DNA of 64,000 nt from positions 1-64,000 of IMG/VR virus record IMGVR_UViG_3300031726_000433. One strand, given 5' to 3'. The translations under genes and the position numbers were made by a program. This document shows, piece after piece, positions 426 through 5,401 of the stretch (positions within the stretch are counted from its first letter, which is position 1; each line of letters starts with the position of its first letter). The notes beneath the pieces were generated by a model that did not search any database, was not told the origin of the DNA, and worked only from the letters and a program-made list of their open reading frames with translations. Source of the DNA: a virus.

Positions 426-1050
426 CTCTGATCTTGTTTCATTTACAAAGGATGCTTTCCACAAGGCTAGCAATAATCAGTCAAAGCTTTCTCCTTTTGA
501 ATTGAACATTGAGGGTATGTCTGGAAATAAGGGTCGTCATCTTCTTAATAATCTCTGTTCCATTCCTCAGACAAGATATCTTGAAGTTGGTATGTGGAGA
601 GGTTCTACACTTTGCTCTGCAATCAAGGGAAATTCAGTTATTGCTACAGGCATTGATAATTGGTCAGAATTTGGCGGACCAATGGGTGAATGCAAGAGTA
701 ACGTAGAAAAGTGCAAGGGATCTTCTCAAGTTAAGATCATTGATCAAGATTGTTTCACAGTAGATAAGAGTTCACTCGATGGTCCTTATAATGTTTATTT
801 CTATGATGGTGGTCATTCTGAAATCGAACAATATAAGGCCATCACTTATTTTGATGAAGTTATGGCAGATTCATTTGTTCTTGTTGTAGATGATTGGATG
901 CAACTTGAAGTTGTTCGTGGTACACTGTTTGGTCTTAAGGATATGAAGTATGATATTCTTTGGGAGAATCATTGTAGGTCTGTTGATTTTAACAGAGCTG
1001 ATTGGTGGTGTGGTTTGTATCTTGCTGTTGTTTCAAAACATAAGGGCTAG
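412..1050 (+). CDS. class I SAM-dependent methyltransferase (Methyltransf_24-like)
   Basis: YLEVGMWRGST motif I, GIDNW, YFYDGGHS, VDDW. Confidence 0.85.
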   Translation: MKISNSDLVSFTKDAFHKASNNQSKLSPFELNIEGMSGNKGRHLLNNLCSIPQTRYLEVGMWRGSTLCSAIKGNSVIATGIDNWSEFGGPMGECKSNVEKCKGSSQVKIIDQDCFTVDKSSLDGPYNVYFYDGGHSEIEQYKAITYFDEVMADSFVLVVDDWMQLEVVRGTLFGLKDMKYDILWENHCRSVDFNRADWWCGLYLAVVSKHKG

Positions 1051-1414
1051 ACCTGGTTTCGACAGAGGACAGTGAAGAATAGAATGCGAGTCGTGGTTGA
1101 TCAGCTTGCCACGTAAAAAGCAGATCAAAAATAACAGTCAACGATAACGTTGAAGTCCCCGCTTGGATGATCTCGGCTAACGCCGCGGCACTCCAGGCTG
1201 CAGCCTAAAAAGTTGCAGGGAATGTTTTCTGGTGAATGTCTGAATAACCAGAAGGCACAAACTTTCAGACAAAAACTTTCAAAGGCGGGCCGTCACCCGG
1301 AGAGAGTTTGGTAAGAGACGGAGTTTGACCTAGCCTCGAGGGTAATAGAGGAAACACTCGTAGTATTTTGTTAATCATTTCTTTTGGACCGGAGTTCGAT
1401 TCTCCGCTAGTCCA
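1044..1414 (+). ncRNA. ssrA: tmRNA (one-piece), tag (A)VNDNVEVPAWMISANAAALQAAA at 1137-1208
   Basis: 5' GGGCTAG-ACCTGGTTTCGAC pairs with 3' CTAGTCC-A giving a G3:U Ala identity pair; T-arm CGGAG TTCGATT CTCCG; tag ORF after ATAACA ends ...QAAA-TAA. Confidence 0.95.
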
Positions 1415-1594: not shown

Positions 1595-1597
1595 TTT

Positions 1598-1670
1598 GCT
1601 CTCATGGTGAAACTGGATATCACGTTAGTCTTCTAAACTTAAGTTGGGGGTTCGAGTCCCTCTGAGAGCA
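1598..1670 (+). tRNA. tRNA-Arg(TCT)
   Basis: GCTCTCA/TGAGAGC, GTGA-AACTGGATA-TCAC (A20), TTAGT-CTTCTAA-ACTTA, GGGGG-TTCGAGT-CCCTC. Confidence 0.92.
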
Positions 1671-1675
1671 TGTTG

Positions 1676-1684
1676 TGTTATAAT
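1676..1684 (+). promoter_or_regulatory. extended -10 promoter (TGnTATAAT), probably giving a leaderless mRNA
   Basis: TGTTATAAT ends 6 nt before ATG 1691; no SD sequence. Confidence 0.55.
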
Positions 1685-1690
1685 ACACAA

Positions 1691-2164
1691 ATGAGATACC
1701 AATACGATAACTGGACATGTGGACCCTGCGCTGTTATAAACGCCGCTGAAATTCTTGGTAGGAAGCTTGCTTTGAAGAGAGCAATCTCAGCTGCCAAGTC
1801 TAGTAACAGCAAAGGAACATCTTCAAAGGGAATCGAAAGAGCAGTTAAGGCTGCTGGACTTCAATGTGAGAAATTCAAAGGTAATCATACTCTTCTGTTT
1901 AAGAAGACTTGGAAGCACTCCAGAAAAGAAAAACTGAGAGCGTGTTTCAATCAAGTTCTTTTTTCTGTCAAATCAGAACCTGTTATAATTTGTGTTCAAA
2001 ATGATTCTCATTGGGTTACTGCTGTCGGAACGATAAACGATAAGATTCTTGTATTTGATCCAGTCGATGGGTTATATCTTATCTCAGAACAAACATTTGA
2101 AGGTTTGATTGGAAAGCACGTAAAAACATTCATAGGTATCAGAGTTCATAAGCCCTCATGGTGA
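1691..2164 (+). CDS. C39-family cysteine peptidase
   Basis: Q...TCGPCA (catalytic Cys), SHWVT (His), VFDP (Asp); start moved from 1670, which lies in the tRNA, to ATG 1691. Confidence 0.8.
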   Translation: MRYQYDNWTCGPCAVINAAEILGRKLALKRAISAAKSSNSKGTSSKGIERAVKAAGLQCEKFKGNHTLLFKKTWKHSRKEKLRACFNQVLFSVKSEPVIICVQNDSHWVTAVGTINDKILVFDPVDGLYLISEQTFEGLIGKHVKTFIGIRVHKPSW

Positions 2165-2178
2165 AACTGGACATCACG
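2152..2178 (+). pseudogene. 5' remnant of a tRNA-Arg (acceptor 5' strand plus D-arm)
   Basis: GCCCTCATGGTGAAACTGGACATCACG is 25/27 identical to 1598-1624; no anticodon arm, T-arm or matching 3' strand follows. Confidence 0.75.
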
Positions 2179-2677
2179 GATTTCTTATTTGTAAAGAACC
2201 GTTATCAAATTCCCAGTGACAATTTGGACAAAGTAGAATAACATTCTTGTCATCATTTATTTCTCTTACAGTAGTTGAACCAGTTGTTTTTGATATTGCT
2301 ATTATATGAGCACATTCTACATGCTTTGAATAACCACATATTCCACATATTTGCTGTTTATTTCGTTTCGAATTTCTTGCCAATTGTCTGATTTCAGAAT
2401 ACCACCATGATCTGTGAATACCTGACTCTCTATATTTTTCTTTCAACTCATCAAGGGTCAAATTTAAAAACTTATCCTTATCTTTAAAGAATTGGTCTAA
2501 ACATTGTGGACATCTTTCCTTTATTATCTCTTTTGGATGAAGCTTTTTCTTGCAAATTCTACATGCTCTTTTATTTGCTTTTCTCTTTGGATTTATACTA
2601 TTGTTAAATGAATTTGCGCAAGATATTGAACAGAACTTCTTGTTCTTTGTTTCAGCATTGCATAATGTACAATTCAT
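2174..2677 (-). mobile_element. free-standing HNH homing endonuclease
   Basis: N-terminal CxxC..KFCxxxC finger; CGICG...ECAHII...N...NVILLCPNCHWEFD; the only credible minus-strand gene. Confidence 0.85.
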
Positions 2678-2754
2678 GTTGTCGTATACCCTCAGTTTCC
2701 TAAACTGGTGAAAGGTTAATTGGATTCATGTGAGTTCGAGTCTCACCGACAATA
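2678..2754 (+). tRNA. atypical tRNA-Arg(CCT) with rewired D-arm
   Basis: GTTGTCG/CGACAAT acceptor, 7-nt linker TATACCC, TCAGT-TTCCTAA-ACTGG, 21-nt variable region containing GGTT-AATTGGA, GTGAG-TTCGAGT-CTCAC T-arm. Confidence 0.8.
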
Positions 2755-2815: not shown

Positions 2816-3619
2816 ATGACTGTAATTTTGAACAAGACTGGATTTTTTCTAAATTCAAGCAAGAAGAACAAGAAGACAAAAGAATGGGAATCTTTCTCAA
2901 AGAAGATTAATACAAAATCTAGCATTGAACTTTTGACATACTGGAAACATGAGATCAAAATTGGTAATGGCGTTTTAACTGGTGATTTCTTTCACATTCT
3001 CGAAGACATGGATTCTGCTCTTCTTACAACGATTGAGATGTTGACTGATTCGAACTGGAAGAAAAATCTTGTTGGTTGGAAGGATCCTGTCGAAGTTAAA
3101 GATCCTCTTGATTTCGTAGAAGTTTACAAGTATGTCGATATATCAAACCACCACGATCTTGATAATCCAGATTTTGAAATCTATCCTTCTTGTCACGGAA
3201 TTGGTAAACCGTGGGAAGGTGAGTCAATGAATGGTGTTTCTGAAGAAGATAGAAAACGATGTAATACATATGCTATAGAATTTCTTCAGTGGAAAGAGTT
3301 GAGAGCCATTCCTCTTCGTATCGCTCCAAAGATGCAGTTCGGAGAGATCGTTTGGAAGAAAGGTAAGAAGACAAAAGAAAGCGATGATGGTCTCGGAAAG
3401 CTATTTAAGAAGTGGAAGATGAATATTCCTCCGAGAGATATCGACAAGAGGGTTACTAGAGAATTTAACTACACTCTTTCAGTAGGCGAATTTTTTGAGG
3501 GAATCGCTGGTGAACTTTGTTTCTTTAGTACACCAGAGAATAGAAAGCAGCAGATGGACGTTTTGAATGAAAGAGTTGAATCTGTAGAAAAAGATGTTAA
3601 GAAAGGTAAGTATAAGTAA
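2816..3619 (+). CDS. hypothetical protein
   Basis: 267-aa ORF with SD and upstream promoter; no recognisable motif. Confidence 0.8.
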   Translation: MTVILNKTGFFLNSSKKNKKTKEWESFSKKINTKSSIELLTYWKHEIKIGNGVLTGDFFHILEDMDSALLTTIEMLTDSNWKKNLVGWKDPVEVKDPLDFVEVYKYVDISNHHDLDNPDFEIYPSCHGIGKPWEGESMNGVSEEDRKRCNTYAIEFLQWKELRAIPLRIAPKMQFGEIVWKKGKKTKESDDGLGKLFKKWKMNIPPRDIDKRVTREFNYTLSVGEFFEGIAGELCFFSTPENRKQQMDVLNERVESVEKDVKKGKYK

Positions 3620-3818: not shown

Positions 3819-4406
3819 ATGAAGAATGTTTTAGAAGAATTGCAGGTTCCAGAAGGACCGAGTTGGCCGTCAAGGTTAGCTGCAGCTCTTCTTACAAAGT
3901 TGGGCAAGTTAAAAGTAATAGAGATAGGAACTGCGTATGGTAATCACTTAAAAACGTATGGTCATCTTGCCAGTAGAATCGTTTGTATAGATCCAATGTA
4001 TGATTGGGTTCCTGACATCACAGAGAATGATGGATTCGATTCACAAAAAGTTGATCAAAGAAAAATTGCCGTCTGGCATCAAAACGCACTCGAGTGTGGA
4101 AATCACATAGAATTGATCACTGGAAATTCGTATATTTCCCATGAGTCAAATGTTCTAAATGAATCTTTTGAAATATTGTTAATTGATGGGTGCCATCATC
4201 CAGCTTCAGAAGTTGTTAAGGATTATAAACTTTACTTAAAACATTTGACGAATCCTCACTACGTCGTTTGGGATGATCTTAGAGAAAGTGATATAAAAGA
4301 AGCAGTAAGACTTCAAAAAATTTTTCTAGAAGAACAAGGTTTAAAGGTAGAAGAAAAAAGTTTCAATTCTGGCGCAGAAGCATTATTGCAGTTTATTTCA
4401 AAGTAA
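3819..4406 (+). CDS. class I SAM-dependent methyltransferase (Methyltransf_24-like)
   Basis: VIEIGTAYG, CIDP, LIDGCHH, VWDD. Confidence 0.8.
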   Translation: MKNVLEELQVPEGPSWPSRLAAALLTKLGKLKVIEIGTAYGNHLKTYGHLASRIVCIDPMYDWVPDITENDGFDSQKVDQRKIAVWHQNALECGNHIELITGNSYISHESNVLNESFEILLIDGCHHPASEVVKDYKLYLKHLTNPHYVVWDDLRESDIKEAVRLQKIFLEEQGLKVEEKSFNSGAEALLQFISK

Positions 4407-4407
4407 C

Positions 4408-4491
4408 GCTCCTTTCCCATAGTGGTCTAGTGGACTGGTTTTGTAAACCAGCGGGGAAACCCAAACGTCGGTTCGAATCCGACAGGGAGCT
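4408..4491 (+). tRNA. tRNA-Thr(TGT) with long variable arm
   Basis: GCTCCTT/AGGGAGC, CCAT/GTGG, CTGGT-TTTGTAA-ACCAG, variable CGGGGAAACCCAAAC, GTCGG-TTCGAAT-CCGAC. Confidence 0.85.
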
Positions 4492-4613: not shown

Positions 4614-5174
4614 ATGTCAGATTTCACACAGGCTATAGTGGTTGTATTAAGGAATGAAGGTGGTTGGGTGGATAACCCAAAGGATCCAGGTGGCGAAACA
4701 GCGTGGGGCATTTCGACTCTGATAATCAATCAATCTAAGATTACCAATGAAGAACTTGGTTTCACTGCCGGAGTTGATCCAGTCGTTGATAATAGACAAC
4801 CTGGTTGGTTAAAGAAACTTTCCGTAGATGGAGCTAAAGCAATCTATAAGAAGCTTTTCTGGGATAAGTTTCATTACGAGAATATTCTTGATCAAAGAGT
4901 TGCTACAAAGATCTTTGACTGTGGAATTAATTGCGGACCTAAGAGAGCTCACATCATGGCTCAGAAGGCTGCAAATGTCTTGGGACAAGGACTGGTTGTA
5001 GATGGCATTCTTGGTCCTCATTCTATGTCAAGTATAAACGTTTGTGATCCTGATAAGTTTCTTCAAGCAATGTGTGAAGAAATGAAAAAGTATTATATCG
5101 CAATTTCAACATCAAATCCAACCCTGAAGGTATTCTTGAAAAATTGGCTTTACAGAGCTTCATGGGTAGGATAA
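4614..5174 (+). CDS. GH108 lysozyme (endolysin) with C-terminal peptidoglycan-binding domain
   Basis: NEGGWVDNPKDPGGETAWGIS, IFDCGINCG, VDGILGP, FLKNWLYRA; SD GAGGAG. Confidence 0.92.
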   Translation: MSDFTQAIVVVLRNEGGWVDNPKDPGGETAWGISTLIINQSKITNEELGFTAGVDPVVDNRQPGWLKKLSVDGAKAIYKKLFWDKFHYENILDQRVATKIFDCGINCGPKRAHIMAQKAANVLGQGLVVDGILGPHSMSSINVCDPDKFLQAMCEEMKKYYIAISTSNPTLKVFLKNWLYRASWVG

Positions 5175-5246: not shown

Positions 5247-5314
5247 TGCAGCGAGCTAGGAGTAAGCCGACTCTCATAAGGTTGTGCTCAAGGGTTCGAG
5301 TCCCTTCGTTGCAA
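5247..5314 (+). tRNA. tRNA-CAT (Met/fMet/Ile2 unresolved) with shortened D-arm
   Basis: TGCAGCG/CGTTGCA-A, only 14 nt between acceptor and anticodon stems, CGACT-CTCATAA-GGTTG, AAGGG-TTCGAGT-CCCTT. Confidence 0.8.
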
Positions 5315-5317
5315 CAT

Positions 5318-5401
5318 GGAGTATAAGCCGTGAACTGGGTCACGAGTGGTTTGCTAATCCATGACCGAAAGGTCAGCAGGGTTCGATTCCCTGATACTCC
5401 T
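5318..5401 (+). tRNA. tRNA-Ser(GCT)
   Basis: GGAGTAT/ATACTCC, GTGGT-TTGCTAA-TCCAT, variable arm GACC-GAAA-GGTC, CAGGG-TTCGATT-CCCTG. Confidence 0.88.

What the first reader, a model, noticed from the sequence alone, without database searches (positions are those of the whole stretch)
2678..2754. tRNA-Arg(CCU) with a topologically rewired D-arm
Seen: normal acceptor, anticodon and T arms, but only 7 nt (UAUACCC) where the D-arm should be and a 21-nt variable region UGAAA-GGUU-AAUUGGA-UUCAU. GGU(U) at 2714-2717 can pair with (U)ACC at 2687-2690, which sits exactly where D-stem strand 22-25 belongs (then C26 and the anticodon stem). It is followed by a textbook D-loop A14 A15 U U G18 G19 A20. 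Known: A20 is the major ArgRS identity base, G18/G19 dock on the T-loop, and U8:A14 and R15:Y48 are conserved; all are available here (U2685, A2718, A2719:U2729). Inference: the 5' D-strand and D-loop have been moved 3' of the anticodon arm, rebuilding the L-shape with different backbone connectivity. I know of no description of this cloverleaf class, but could not search.
Basis: partly seen in the sequence, partly recalled or inferred. Interest (0 to 1): 0.9.

Follow-up and report, generated by a model that had tools for sequence, protein, structure and literature searches.

The report
Phage arginine tRNA with transposed D-strand
This 77-base gene is an intact arginine tRNA (anticodon CCU) from a large, almost purely viral class in which one strand of the D-stem plus the D-loop sits after the anticodon arm instead of before it. 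That makes it a non-cloverleaf tRNA that standard finders miss and that I could not find described.

Summary
Window 2678-2754 (+) has normal acceptor, anticodon (CCU) and T arms, 7 nt in place of the D-arm, and a 21-nt "variable" region. ARAGORN and Rfam at gathering threshold miss it.

Two pattern scans that left the proposed helix free recovered 146 distinct 77-nt relatives, nearly all from viral contigs.
- **Helix:** the proposed helix (2688-2690 ACC with 2714-2716 GGU) is Watson-Crick in 146/146, with 12 different triplet pairs.
- **Rival hairpin:** UGAA/UUCA pairs in only 48% of cells and shows no covariation.
- **Tertiary pair:** the 15:48-equivalents covary (A-U 92, G-C 39).
- **Identity base:** the base after GG ("position 20") is A in 23/23 Arg-anticodon members and in 1/123 others, matching the bacterial ArgRS determinant.
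- **Context:** members sit in phage tRNA arrays and fill anticodon slots that canonical tRNAs leave empty. This phage uses AGG 125 times and has no other CCU tRNA.

Best reading: a working tRNA-Arg(CCU) with a rebuilt core. Expression and charging were not tested. I found no published description. Earlier agents of this scan noted the same class on other DNA (Felix O1-like phages), and I re-found the Felix O1 copy myself.

The parts
2678..2684 (+). Acceptor stem, 5' strand (GUUGUCG)
   Evidence: Pairs with 2747-2753, 7 bp including G1.U72. In the family, all 7 pairs show double-sided changes and 97% of cells are paired.
2685..2687 (+). U8, A9 and an invariant U (22-equivalent) linking the acceptor stem to the core helix
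   Evidence: U and A are invariant and the third U is at least 98% conserved in 146 members. None of the three was fixed by a search pattern.
2688..2690 (+). Core helix, 5' strand ACC (equivalent to D-stem positions 23-25)
   Evidence: Watson-Crick with 2714-2716. This holds in 146/146 members with 12 triplet combinations.
2691..2691 (+). C, position-26 equivalent between the core helix and the anticodon stem
   Evidence: C in 145/146 members. It may pair with the invariant G2710; this is an untested inference.
2692..2708 (+). Anticodon arm: stem 2692-2696/2704-2708, loop UUCCUAA, anticodon CCU at 2699-2701, A37 at 2702
   Evidence: Sequence. Stem pairs 16:30 to 19:27 covary in the family. The closing 15:31 pair is U.U in 132/146 members and U.G here.
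2709..2713 (+). Linker U-GAAA from the anticodon stem to the core helix
   Evidence: The first base varies. GAAA was fixed by my search patterns. Variants found with the model have shorter or longer linkers.
2714..2717 (+). Core helix, 3' strand GGU (equivalent to D-stem 10-12) plus an invariant U (13-equivalent)
   Evidence: Covaries with 2688-2690.
2718..2726 (+). Open D-loop-like strand AAUUGGAUU: A14, A15, U16, U17, G18, G19, A20 (2724), U, U
   Evidence: Matches the D-loop AACUGGAU of this phage's own canonical tRNA-Arg(UCU) at 7 of the first 8 bases. Column 47 (2724) is A in 23/23 Arg members and in 1/123 others.
2727..2729 (+). CAU, the 3' remnant of the variable loop; U2729 is the 48-equivalent
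   Evidence: C and A are invariant. U2729 covaries with A2719: A-U 92, G-C 39.
2730..2746 (+). T arm GUGAG-UUCGAGU-CUCAC
   Evidence: Sequence. Same T-loop as the phage's canonical tRNA-Arg. The stem covaries in the family.
2747..2754 (+). Acceptor stem, 3' strand, and discriminator A2754; no encoded CCA
   Evidence: Sequence. None of the other nine tRNAs in this array encodes CCA either.
1597..1671 (+). Canonical tRNA-Arg(UCU) of the same array (context: the AGA decoder)
   Evidence: ARAGORN and Rfam; sequence.
2174..2677 (-). HNH endonuclease ORF whose start codon abuts the 5' end of the tRNA (context only)
   Evidence: Pfam PF13391, E 3.6e-12. It is the only minus-strand ORF among 81 in the record.

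Best explanation
Window 2678-2754 encodes a functional phage elongator tRNA-Arg(CCU) that reads AGG.

**Proposed fold.** Its core is rebuilt by a segment transposition. The canonical order is 8-9 | 10-21 | 22-26 | anticodon arm | 44-48. Here the order is 8-9 | 22-26 | anticodon arm | 44-45 + AAA | 10-21 | 46-48. The 3' D-stem strand (ACC) stays in place and pairs across the anticodon arm with GGU. This forms a 3-bp helix that stacks on the anticodon stem, giving about 10 layers, as in the canonical D-stem plus anticodon stem. The D-loop sequence follows as an open strand running into the T stem. It supplies A14 (to U8), A15 (to U48), G18G19 (to the T-loop) and A20.

**Proposed function.** The RNA would be cut out by RNase P and 3' processing, receive CCA from the host enzyme, and be charged by host ArgRS through A20, C35, U36 and A73. 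It would then supplement AGG decoding alongside the canonical tRNA-Arg(UCU) 1 kb upstream.

**Shown:** the helix, the 15:48-type covariation, the link between A20 and the anticodon, and the array context.

**Inferred:** the L-shape, processing, charging and decoding.

Why viruses keep this wiring is unknown. Escape from host nucleases that target tRNA is a plausible but untested reason.
For: - Together they gave 146 distinct 77-nt members.
- **Core helix.** 100% Watson-Crick with 40, 62 and 19 double-sided changes at the three pairs. The 17 highest mutual-information pairs are all helix pairs of this model. The next two are 42:52 (15:48) and 23:47 (base 35 with 'position 20').
- **Identity elements.** They match the bacterial Arg set A20, C35, U/G36, A/G73 (review PMC9976931). 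This gene has all four.
- **Array context.** Of 184 occurrences, 161 have canonical tRNAs in the locus and 124 have one on the same strand within 300 nt. In loci with at least 5 canonical tRNAs, the member's anticodon is never duplicated for UAU (0/35), ACG (0/10), UCU (0/3) or CCU (0/2).
- **3' trailer.** It starts with C in about 95% of members and is CCA in 33/145. The Pseudomonas phage PA11 variant encodes CCA.
- **Codon need.** This phage uses AGA 881 times and AGG 125 times, against 288 CGN codons. It has a canonical UCU tRNA and no other CCU tRNA.
- **D-loop match.** The open strand matches this phage's own canonical tRNA-Arg D-loop at 7 of its first 8 bases and has the same T-loop.
- **Feasibility.** The E. 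coli translation machinery accepts even a fully D-armless tRNA (PMC11551756).
Against: - There is no expression, processing, modification or aminoacylation data for this gene or for any member.
- Nearest-neighbour energy does not favour the helix: -13.7 kcal/mol with it against -13.6 without it here, and it appears in the minimum-free-energy fold of only 16/146 members.
- No 3D model was made, so backbone feasibility rests on my reading of canonical tRNA geometry.
- This copy departs from the family consensus at two points: U instead of A/G at the 21-equivalent (2726; 2/146 members) and a U.G instead of U.U pair closing the anticodon stem.
- A14, G18G19 and GAAA were fixed by the search patterns, so their invariance is partly by construction.
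- Related sequences share ancestry, so counts overstate the number of independent events.
Confidence: 0.8

Rival explanations
1. A tRNA mimic that is not used for decoding. It could be a decoy or sponge for host nucleases or toxins that target tRNA, or a processing signal (RNase P/RNase Z punctuation) in the array transcript.
For: No charging or decoding data exist. Phages face many tRNA-targeting defences (PMC13056530). The class is restricted to a few anticodon families (Ile, Arg, Met, one Val), which could reflect particular nuclease targets.
Against: A decoy would not need the aaRS identity base to switch with the anticodon (A20 in 23/23 Arg members against 1/123 others). It would not need to fill exactly the anticodon slots missing from canonical arrays. 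It also would not need to keep U33, A37, a 7-nt loop and the discriminator rules.
Confidence: 0.08
2. A D-armless tRNA with a class-II-like extra hairpin (UGAA/UUCA closing a 12-nt loop), with the 7-nt UAUACCC as a plain connector. This would resemble mitochondrial tRNA-Ser(AGY) with an added arm.
For: In this one sequence the 4-bp hairpin can form, and it has the same computed energy as the helix model (-13.6 against -13.7 kcal/mol).
Against: Across 79 members only 48% of cells pair. The A34:N49 position is unpaired in 77/79, and no pair shows a compensatory change. The closest cultured relatives (Streptomyces phages) have AGAA/UACA. The hairpin is possible here only because this copy carries a rare U at 2726 (2/146).
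Confidence: 0.03
3. A decaying or nuclease-damaged tRNA pseudogene next to a homing endonuclease, with no function in this phage.
For: An HNH ORF abuts it on the opposite strand. It lacks the C74 that 95% of members have, and it carries two rare substitutions.
Against: All 20 model base pairs are intact. Its 81.6-bit score lies within the range of the full 77-nt members, 72-97 bits. Every canonical tRNA in the same array also lacks an encoded CCA. It is the phage's only CCU tRNA, and the phage has 125 AGG codons.
Confidence: 0.04
4. A working tRNA whose identity is not arginine: it is charged by another synthetase, or by a phage factor, so that AGG is read differently.
For: Nothing direct. Non-canonical tRNAs such as the allo-tRNAs sometimes carry mismatched identities (PMC5389517).
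Against: The full bacterial Arg determinant set is present, and it is specific to the Arg-anticodon members. No aaRS or other tRNA-charging gene was looked for in the record, apart from a null search for a CCA-adding enzyme. AGG usage looks ordinary.
Confidence: 0.03

Closest known systems
Canonical bacterial/phage tRNA-Arg (Rfam RF00005), for example this phage's own tRNA-Arg(UCU) at 1597-1671
   Same: 7-bp acceptor stem, 5-bp anticodon stem with a 7-nt loop, and a 5-bp T stem with the same T-loop UUCGAGU. It shares U8-A9, a D-loop sequence A-A-Y-U-G-G-A-U, and the Arg determinants A20, C35, U36 and A/G73.
   Different: There is no D hairpin. The 5' D-stem strand and the D-loop lie 3' of the anticodon arm, so the secondary structure is a three-way junction rather than a four-way cloverleaf. 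The helix is 3 bp plus U.U, and there is an extra GAAA linker. RF00005 aligns it only by deleting the D-arm (29.1 bits).
D-armless animal mitochondrial tRNA-Ser(AGY/GCU) and other truncated mt-tRNAs (PMC4013460; PMC10412605; PDB 7U2A/7U2B as cited in PMC10412605 and PMC11551756)
   Same: [quoted passage not shown] Standard tRNA finders have trouble with them.
   Different: The mitochondrial forms have lost the D-loop and the elbow contact, and they fold into a Y-shape with a remodelled T arm (PMC11551756). They need co-evolved factors (PMC4013460). The phage class keeps every D-loop element (A14, R15, G18G19, position 20) and a covarying D-stem-like helix, only with different connectivity. It would have to work with ordinary bacterial machinery.
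mt-tRNA-Ser(UGA) and tRNA-Pyl compact cores with an extended anticodon stem (PMC10412605)
   Same: They compensate for changes in the core by adding layers to the anticodon/D stack so that the overall arm length is kept.
   Different: They are still cloverleaves with a D hairpin; no strand is transposed.
allo-tRNAs with an 8/4 or 9/3 acceptor branch (PMC5389517)
   Same: They are non-canonical tRNAs found by metagenome mining. UAU and Arg anticodons are frequent among them, and they are compatible with bacterial translation.
   Different: The departure is in the acceptor/T branch, together with a long V-arm. The D hairpin is present. They are mostly bacterial, and their identity is mostly Ser-like.
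Circularly permuted or split tRNA genes (PMC3978253)
   Same: tRNA segments are encoded in a non-canonical order.
   Different: In those cases the gene is permuted but processing restores a normal cloverleaf RNA. Here the mature RNA itself would carry the permuted segment order; no splicing or ligation signals are needed or seen.

Membership tests
tRNA (functional elongator tRNA, isoacceptor Arg-CCU) | 7-bp acceptor stem plus discriminator, and a 5-bp T stem with a GTTCRA T-loop | tested here: met
   Sequence. Rfam RF00005 aligns these parts with high posterior probability. The pairs covary in the family.
tRNA (functional elongator tRNA, isoacceptor Arg-CCU) | Anticodon arm with a 7-nt loop, U33 and a purine at 37 | tested here: met
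   Loop UUCCUAA at 2697-2703: U33, CCU, A37.
tRNA (functional elongator tRNA, isoacceptor Arg-CCU) | Canonical four-arm cloverleaf with a D hairpin between positions 9 and 26 | tested here: not met
   [quoted passage not shown] ARAGORN does not call it. RF00005 deletes the D-arm. For this reason I file it as a new variant, not a standard member.
tRNA (functional elongator tRNA, isoacceptor Arg-CCU) | Tertiary core: D-stem-like helix, U8:A14, R15:Y48, G18G19 to the T-loop | tested here: met
   The helix and the 15:48 pair are supported by covariation. U8 is invariant and was not fixed by any pattern. A14 and G18G19 are invariant but were fixed by the patterns, so they are consistent rather than proven.
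tRNA (functional elongator tRNA, isoacceptor Arg-CCU) | Bacterial arginine identity set: A20, C35, U/G36, A/G73 (PMC9976931) | tested here: met
   A2724, C2700, U2701 and A2754 are present. Family-wide, A20 is specific to Arg anticodons, 23/23 against 1/123.
tRNA (functional elongator tRNA, isoacceptor Arg-CCU) | Transcribed, end-processed, given CCA, aminoacylated and used on the ribosome | not testable with these tools
   No RNA data were available. This is the main open point.
Rewired-D viral tRNA class (defined here by model R1) | Layout: acceptor, UAU, NNN, C, anticodon arm, N-GAAA, N'N'N', U, A-R-N-N-GG, N4-5, Y, T arm; with NNN:N'N'N' Watson-Crick | tested here: met
   81.6 bits, E 1.5e-20, full-length match. 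ACC:GGU is one of the 12 triplet pairs seen.
Rewired-D viral tRNA class (defined here by model R1) | Location in a phage tRNA array, on the same strand, filling an otherwise empty anticodon slot | tested here: met
   It lies between tRNA-Arg(UCU) and tRNA-Gln in a nine-tRNA plus tmRNA array (ARAGORN count). No other CCU tRNA is present.
D-armless mitochondrial-type tRNA | Loss of the D-loop/T-loop elbow elements (no G18G19, no A14/R15) | tested here: not met
   AAUUGGA is retained and conserved. It may work partly like a D-armless tRNA, but it is not one.

The most novel reading that the evidence does not exclude
Bacterial viruses maintain a widespread class of elongator tRNAs (Ile, Arg, Met) that are not cloverleaves. 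One D-stem strand and the whole D-loop are transposed to the 3' side of the anticodon arm, and the L-shaped core is rebuilt with a different backbone path. These tRNAs would be charged and used by unmodified bacterial synthetases, EF-Tu and ribosomes. The class has not been described, and it may persist because the altered core escapes host enzymes that attack tRNA.
Probability: 0.55. Interest if true: 0.92.

Novelty: new variant of a known kind. Interest (0 to 1): 0.86.

Why it matters
The cloverleaf is treated as universal outside organelles. A 2024 paper states that all known bacterial tRNAs are cloverleaves and that armless tRNAs exist only in mitochondria (PMC11551756).

A natural, abundant and strongly covarying class with the D-strand in a different place would have several consequences:
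- It would show that the tRNA core tolerates a change of topology while keeping its tertiary contacts and synthetase determinants.
- It would reveal a blind spot in phage annotation. ARAGORN called 2 of 184 occurrences. One of about 80 Streptomyces phage records annotates the gene, and with the wrong identity. Felix O1's 'missing' AGA tRNA is one of these.
- It would change estimates of phage tRNA repertoires and of codon supplementation for AUA, AGA and AGG.
- It would give tRNA engineers a natural scaffold that may be orthogonal to core-recognising enzymes.
- It would make testable the idea that phages restructure tRNAs to evade tRNA-targeting immunity.

Culturable carriers (Felix O1, Pseudomonas PA11-like phages, Streptomyces Samistivirus) make direct experiments easy.

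Tried and rejected
- **Standard finders.** ARAGORN and Rfam at gathering threshold report nothing here.
- **Thermodynamic folding.** It gives no support. The minimum-free-energy fold mispairs the T arm with the variable region (z -1.3), and the helix is energetically neutral. The argument therefore rests on covariation.
- **Alternative hairpin.** UGAA/UUCA was rejected.
- **Synteny search.** Using the downstream ORF (2816-3619) found no related viral contigs, so I could not compare close relatives of this phage.
- **Sequencing runs.** No RNA holder is listed; all 24 runs are peat metagenome DNA. I did not use read laying, because contigs of DNA runs cannot show expression.
- **CCA-adding enzyme.** PF01743 gave no hit in the record, but the record is only about 48% complete, so this is inconclusive.
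- **HNH link.** tblastn with this HNH protein found homologues near a member in only one other locus, plus Felix O1 ORF44. I do not claim a general association.
- **Bacterial genomes.** Of 35 pattern hits in 185,579 species genomes, 12 scanned with the model were chance matches, including the only isolate genome, Natronobacillus. The true members are all on MAG contigs.
- **Literature.** Eight full-text searches and eleven papers read turned up no description of this architecture. Subscription-only papers are outside the library.
- **3D modelling.** No RNA 3D modelling tool was available.

Full report
**1. The observation**

- The acceptor stem has 7 bp, with G1.U72.
- The seven bases UAUACCC stand where a D-arm should be.
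- The anticodon arm has the loop UUCCUAA, giving anticodon CCU.
- A 21-nt stretch, UGAAA-GGUU-AAUUGGA-UUCAU, follows the anticodon arm.
- The T arm is standard and the discriminator is A2754. No CCA is encoded.

ARAGORN finds nine tRNAs and a tmRNA in the same 4.5-kb array but not this gene. Rfam's tRNA model misses it in the default run. With permissive filters it reaches 29.1 bits, and only by deleting the D-arm and treating 18 nt as an insertion.

**2. Relatives**

A blastn search of GenBank phages matched only the element itself (window 2683-2748). It hit 74 Streptomyces Samistivirus genomes, and the element is annotated in just one of them, as 'tRNA-Leu'. The Streptomyces copy has different acceptor, anticodon (GAU) and T stems.

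I then scanned IMG/VR with GAAA-N4-AATYGG-N10-GTTCRA, which leaves the proposed helix free. A second scan with AG in place of AA at the 14-15 equivalents gave 48 more members.

The stricter pattern run over 185,579 prokaryotic species genomes gave 35 stretches. Of these, 12 were chance matches, including the only isolate genome. The rest were on MAG contigs. The merged set is 146 distinct sequences (alignment A2).

A covariance model (R1) scores the window's gene at 81.6 bits (E 1.5e-20). It is the only member in the window and in the 98.7-kb record. The model also finds looser variants:
- variants with shorter or longer linkers;
- a variant in Pseudomonas phage PA11 that encodes CCA;
- an unannotated Arg(UCU) copy in Felix O1 at 25951-26029. 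The Felix O1 genome paper expected an AGA tRNA and did not find one (PMC3185647).

**3. Structure**

*The helix.* In the formal count on 146 sequences, columns 11-13 pair with 37-39 (window 2688-2690 with 2714-2716) in 438 of 438 cells. All pairs are Watson-Crick with no G-U. There are 40, 62 and 19 double-sided changes at the three pairs (79-sequence version). Twelve triplet combinations occur: CCC:GGG, CUC:GAG, ACC:GGU, CGG:CCG, UCC:GGA, GCC:GGC, CGC:GCG, CCG:CGG, AAC:GUU, CCA:UGG, CAC:GUG and AGG:CCU. Neither the search patterns nor my membership filter (acceptor, anticodon and T stems only) used these columns.

*The rival hairpin.* UGAA/UUCA pairs in 48% of cells with no compensatory change. 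It is possible here only because this copy has a rare U at 2726.

*An unbiased ranking.* An APC-corrected mutual-information ranking puts the model's helix pairs in the top 17 places. The next two are 42:52 and 23:47.
- Columns 42:52 are the 15:48 equivalents: A-U 92, G-C 39, G-U 4, other 11 (Fisher p 8e-24). This is the signature of the Levitt pair.
- Columns 23:47 link the middle anticodon base to the base after GG.

*Topology.* The fold is nested, a three-way junction. The 3-bp helix closes over the anticodon arm with C on one side and N-GAAA on the other. Counting U.U (2687.2717), the three pairs, a possible C2691:G2710 layer and the 5-layer anticodon stem gives about ten stacked layers. 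That is the length of the canonical D-stem/26:44/anticodon stem stack. This last point is my inference.

*Thermodynamics.* Nearest-neighbour energies are neutral about the helix, as expected for a short stem held by tertiary contacts.

**4. Function**

*Identity elements.* The base after GG is A in all 23 members with Arg anticodons (ACG, UCU, CCU, GCG) and in 1 of 123 with Ile, Met or Val anticodons, where it is U. A20 is the main bacterial ArgRS determinant, together with C35, U/G36 and A/G73. U20 and A73 belong to the Ile set (PMC9976931). This gene has A2724, C2700, U2701 and A2754. Its open 'D-loop' AAUUGGAU matches the D-loop AACUGGAU of the phage's own canonical tRNA-Arg(UCU) at 7 of 8 bases, and the T-loops are identical.

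*Array context.* Members lie in phage tRNA arrays. Of 184 occurrences, 161 have canonical tRNAs in the locus and 124 have one on the same strand within 300 nt. ARAGORN calls only 2 of the 184. Where at least 5 canonical tRNAs are present, the member's anticodon is never duplicated for UAU, ACG, UCU or CCU. In several arrays the member is the only Arg tRNA, for example L083, L091 and L039. A recurrent trio is Leu(UAA), Arg(UCU) and the rewired Ile(UAU). It covers the rare codons UUA, AGA and AUA.

*3' end.* The 3' trailer begins with C in about 95% of members and is CCA in 23%.

*This phage.* It is a peat-metagenome myovirus-like fragment with 40% GC. It uses AGA 881 times and AGG 125 times, against 288 CGN codons. 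It carries a canonical UCU tRNA and this CCU gene. None of its tRNAs encodes CCA.

Together this supports a decoding tRNA over a decoy or a wreck. There is no direct evidence that the RNA is made, charged or used.

**5. Comparison with known forms**

It works like an ordinary tRNA-Arg but fails the cloverleaf criterion.

It is not a mitochondrial-type D-armless tRNA. Those have lost the D-loop and the elbow and fold into a Y-shape (PMC4013460, PMC10412605, PMC11551756). This class keeps every D-loop element.

It is not an allo-tRNA. It is not a permuted gene that is repaired by processing (PMC3978253).

A tandem duplication of segment 10-45, followed by loss of the outer copies, would give the observed order. 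That is speculation.

**6. Novelty**

Eight full-text searches and the reviews I read describe nothing like this. A 2024 paper states that all known bacterial tRNAs are cloverleaves.

Earlier agents of this scan reported the same class in Felix O1-like phages on other DNA. I verified the Felix O1 copy independently.

**7. Verdict**

The structural claim is strong, about 0.95. The functional claim, a working tRNA-Arg(CCU), is about 0.8. I file it as a new variant of a known kind, of high interest.

Noticed in passing
window 1044-1414 (+): The phage encodes a full-length tmRNA at the head of the tRNA array (Rfam 114 bits). ARAGORN's tag peptide ends in ...AALQAAA.
   Followed up: no
window 2174-2677 (-): An HNH endonuclease ORF (PF13391) is the only minus-strand ORF among 81 in the record. 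Its start codon abuts the 5' end of the rewired tRNA, so its upstream signals would lie antisense inside the tRNA gene. HNH genes also overlap or abut the variants in PA11 (L280:769-1221) and Felix O1 (ORF45). By homology, however, this HNH recurs near a member in only one other locus.
   Followed up: partly
window 5318-5400 (+): A weak Rfam tRNA-Sec-like match (27.4 bits, below gathering) fills the gap between tRNA-Met and tRNA-Thr. ARAGORN does not call it. It may be another non-canonical tRNA.
   Followed up: no
window 4408-4491 and 5247-5315 (+): There is an 84-nt tRNA-Thr(UGU) with an unusually long variable region. There is also a 69-nt tRNA-Met(CAU) that ARAGORN calls but Rfam does not list even at E up to 10.
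   Followed up: no
window 1670-2164, 412-1050, 3819-4406, 4614-5174 (+): Protein genes are interleaved with the tRNA array: a peptidase C39-like ORF, two Methyltransf_24 ORFs, and a GH108 plus PG_binding_3 endolysin.
   Followed up: no
L001:961-1482 (Streptomyces phage EGole) and the other Samistivirus records: The rewired Ile(GAU) gene sits directly after a 'nucleotidyltransferase' gene and before an FtsK-like translocase. It is annotated in only 1 of about 80 records, as tRNA-Leu(UUA).
   Followed up: partly
L281:25951-26029 (Felix O1, NC_005282): An unannotated rewired Arg(UCU) variant (51 bits) lies in the tRNA cluster and is partly overlapped by the annotated HNH ORF45. It would be the AGA decoder that the genome paper expected and did not find.
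   Followed up: yes
L280:1195-1277 (Pseudomonas phage PA11): A looser variant (Arg UCU, 47 bits) has a 6-bp anticodon stem, a 2-nt linker and a longer 3' strand. It encodes CCA. It is unannotated or hidden under an HNH CDS in PA11-like records.
   Followed up: partly
L003, L004, L007, L015, L042, L061, L109, L121: A three-gene mini-array recurs in many viral contigs: tRNA-Leu(UAA), tRNA-Arg(UCU) and the rewired tRNA-Ile(UAU). It covers the rare codons UUA, AGA and AUA.
   Followed up: partly
L040:5527-5600, L087:6932-7023, L117:5513-5583, L098:4462-4882: ARAGORN calls suppressor-type tRNAs (anticodons CUA and UUA) and a permuted tmRNA in some of the fetched phage arrays. This hints at recoded phages among the carriers.
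   Followed up: no
alignment A2, columns 15 and 31 (window 2692 and 2708): The closing 'pair' of the anticodon stem (27:43) is a conserved U.U mismatch in 132/146 members and U.G here. It is unexplained. It may belong to the junction with the core helix rather than to the stem.
   Followed up: no
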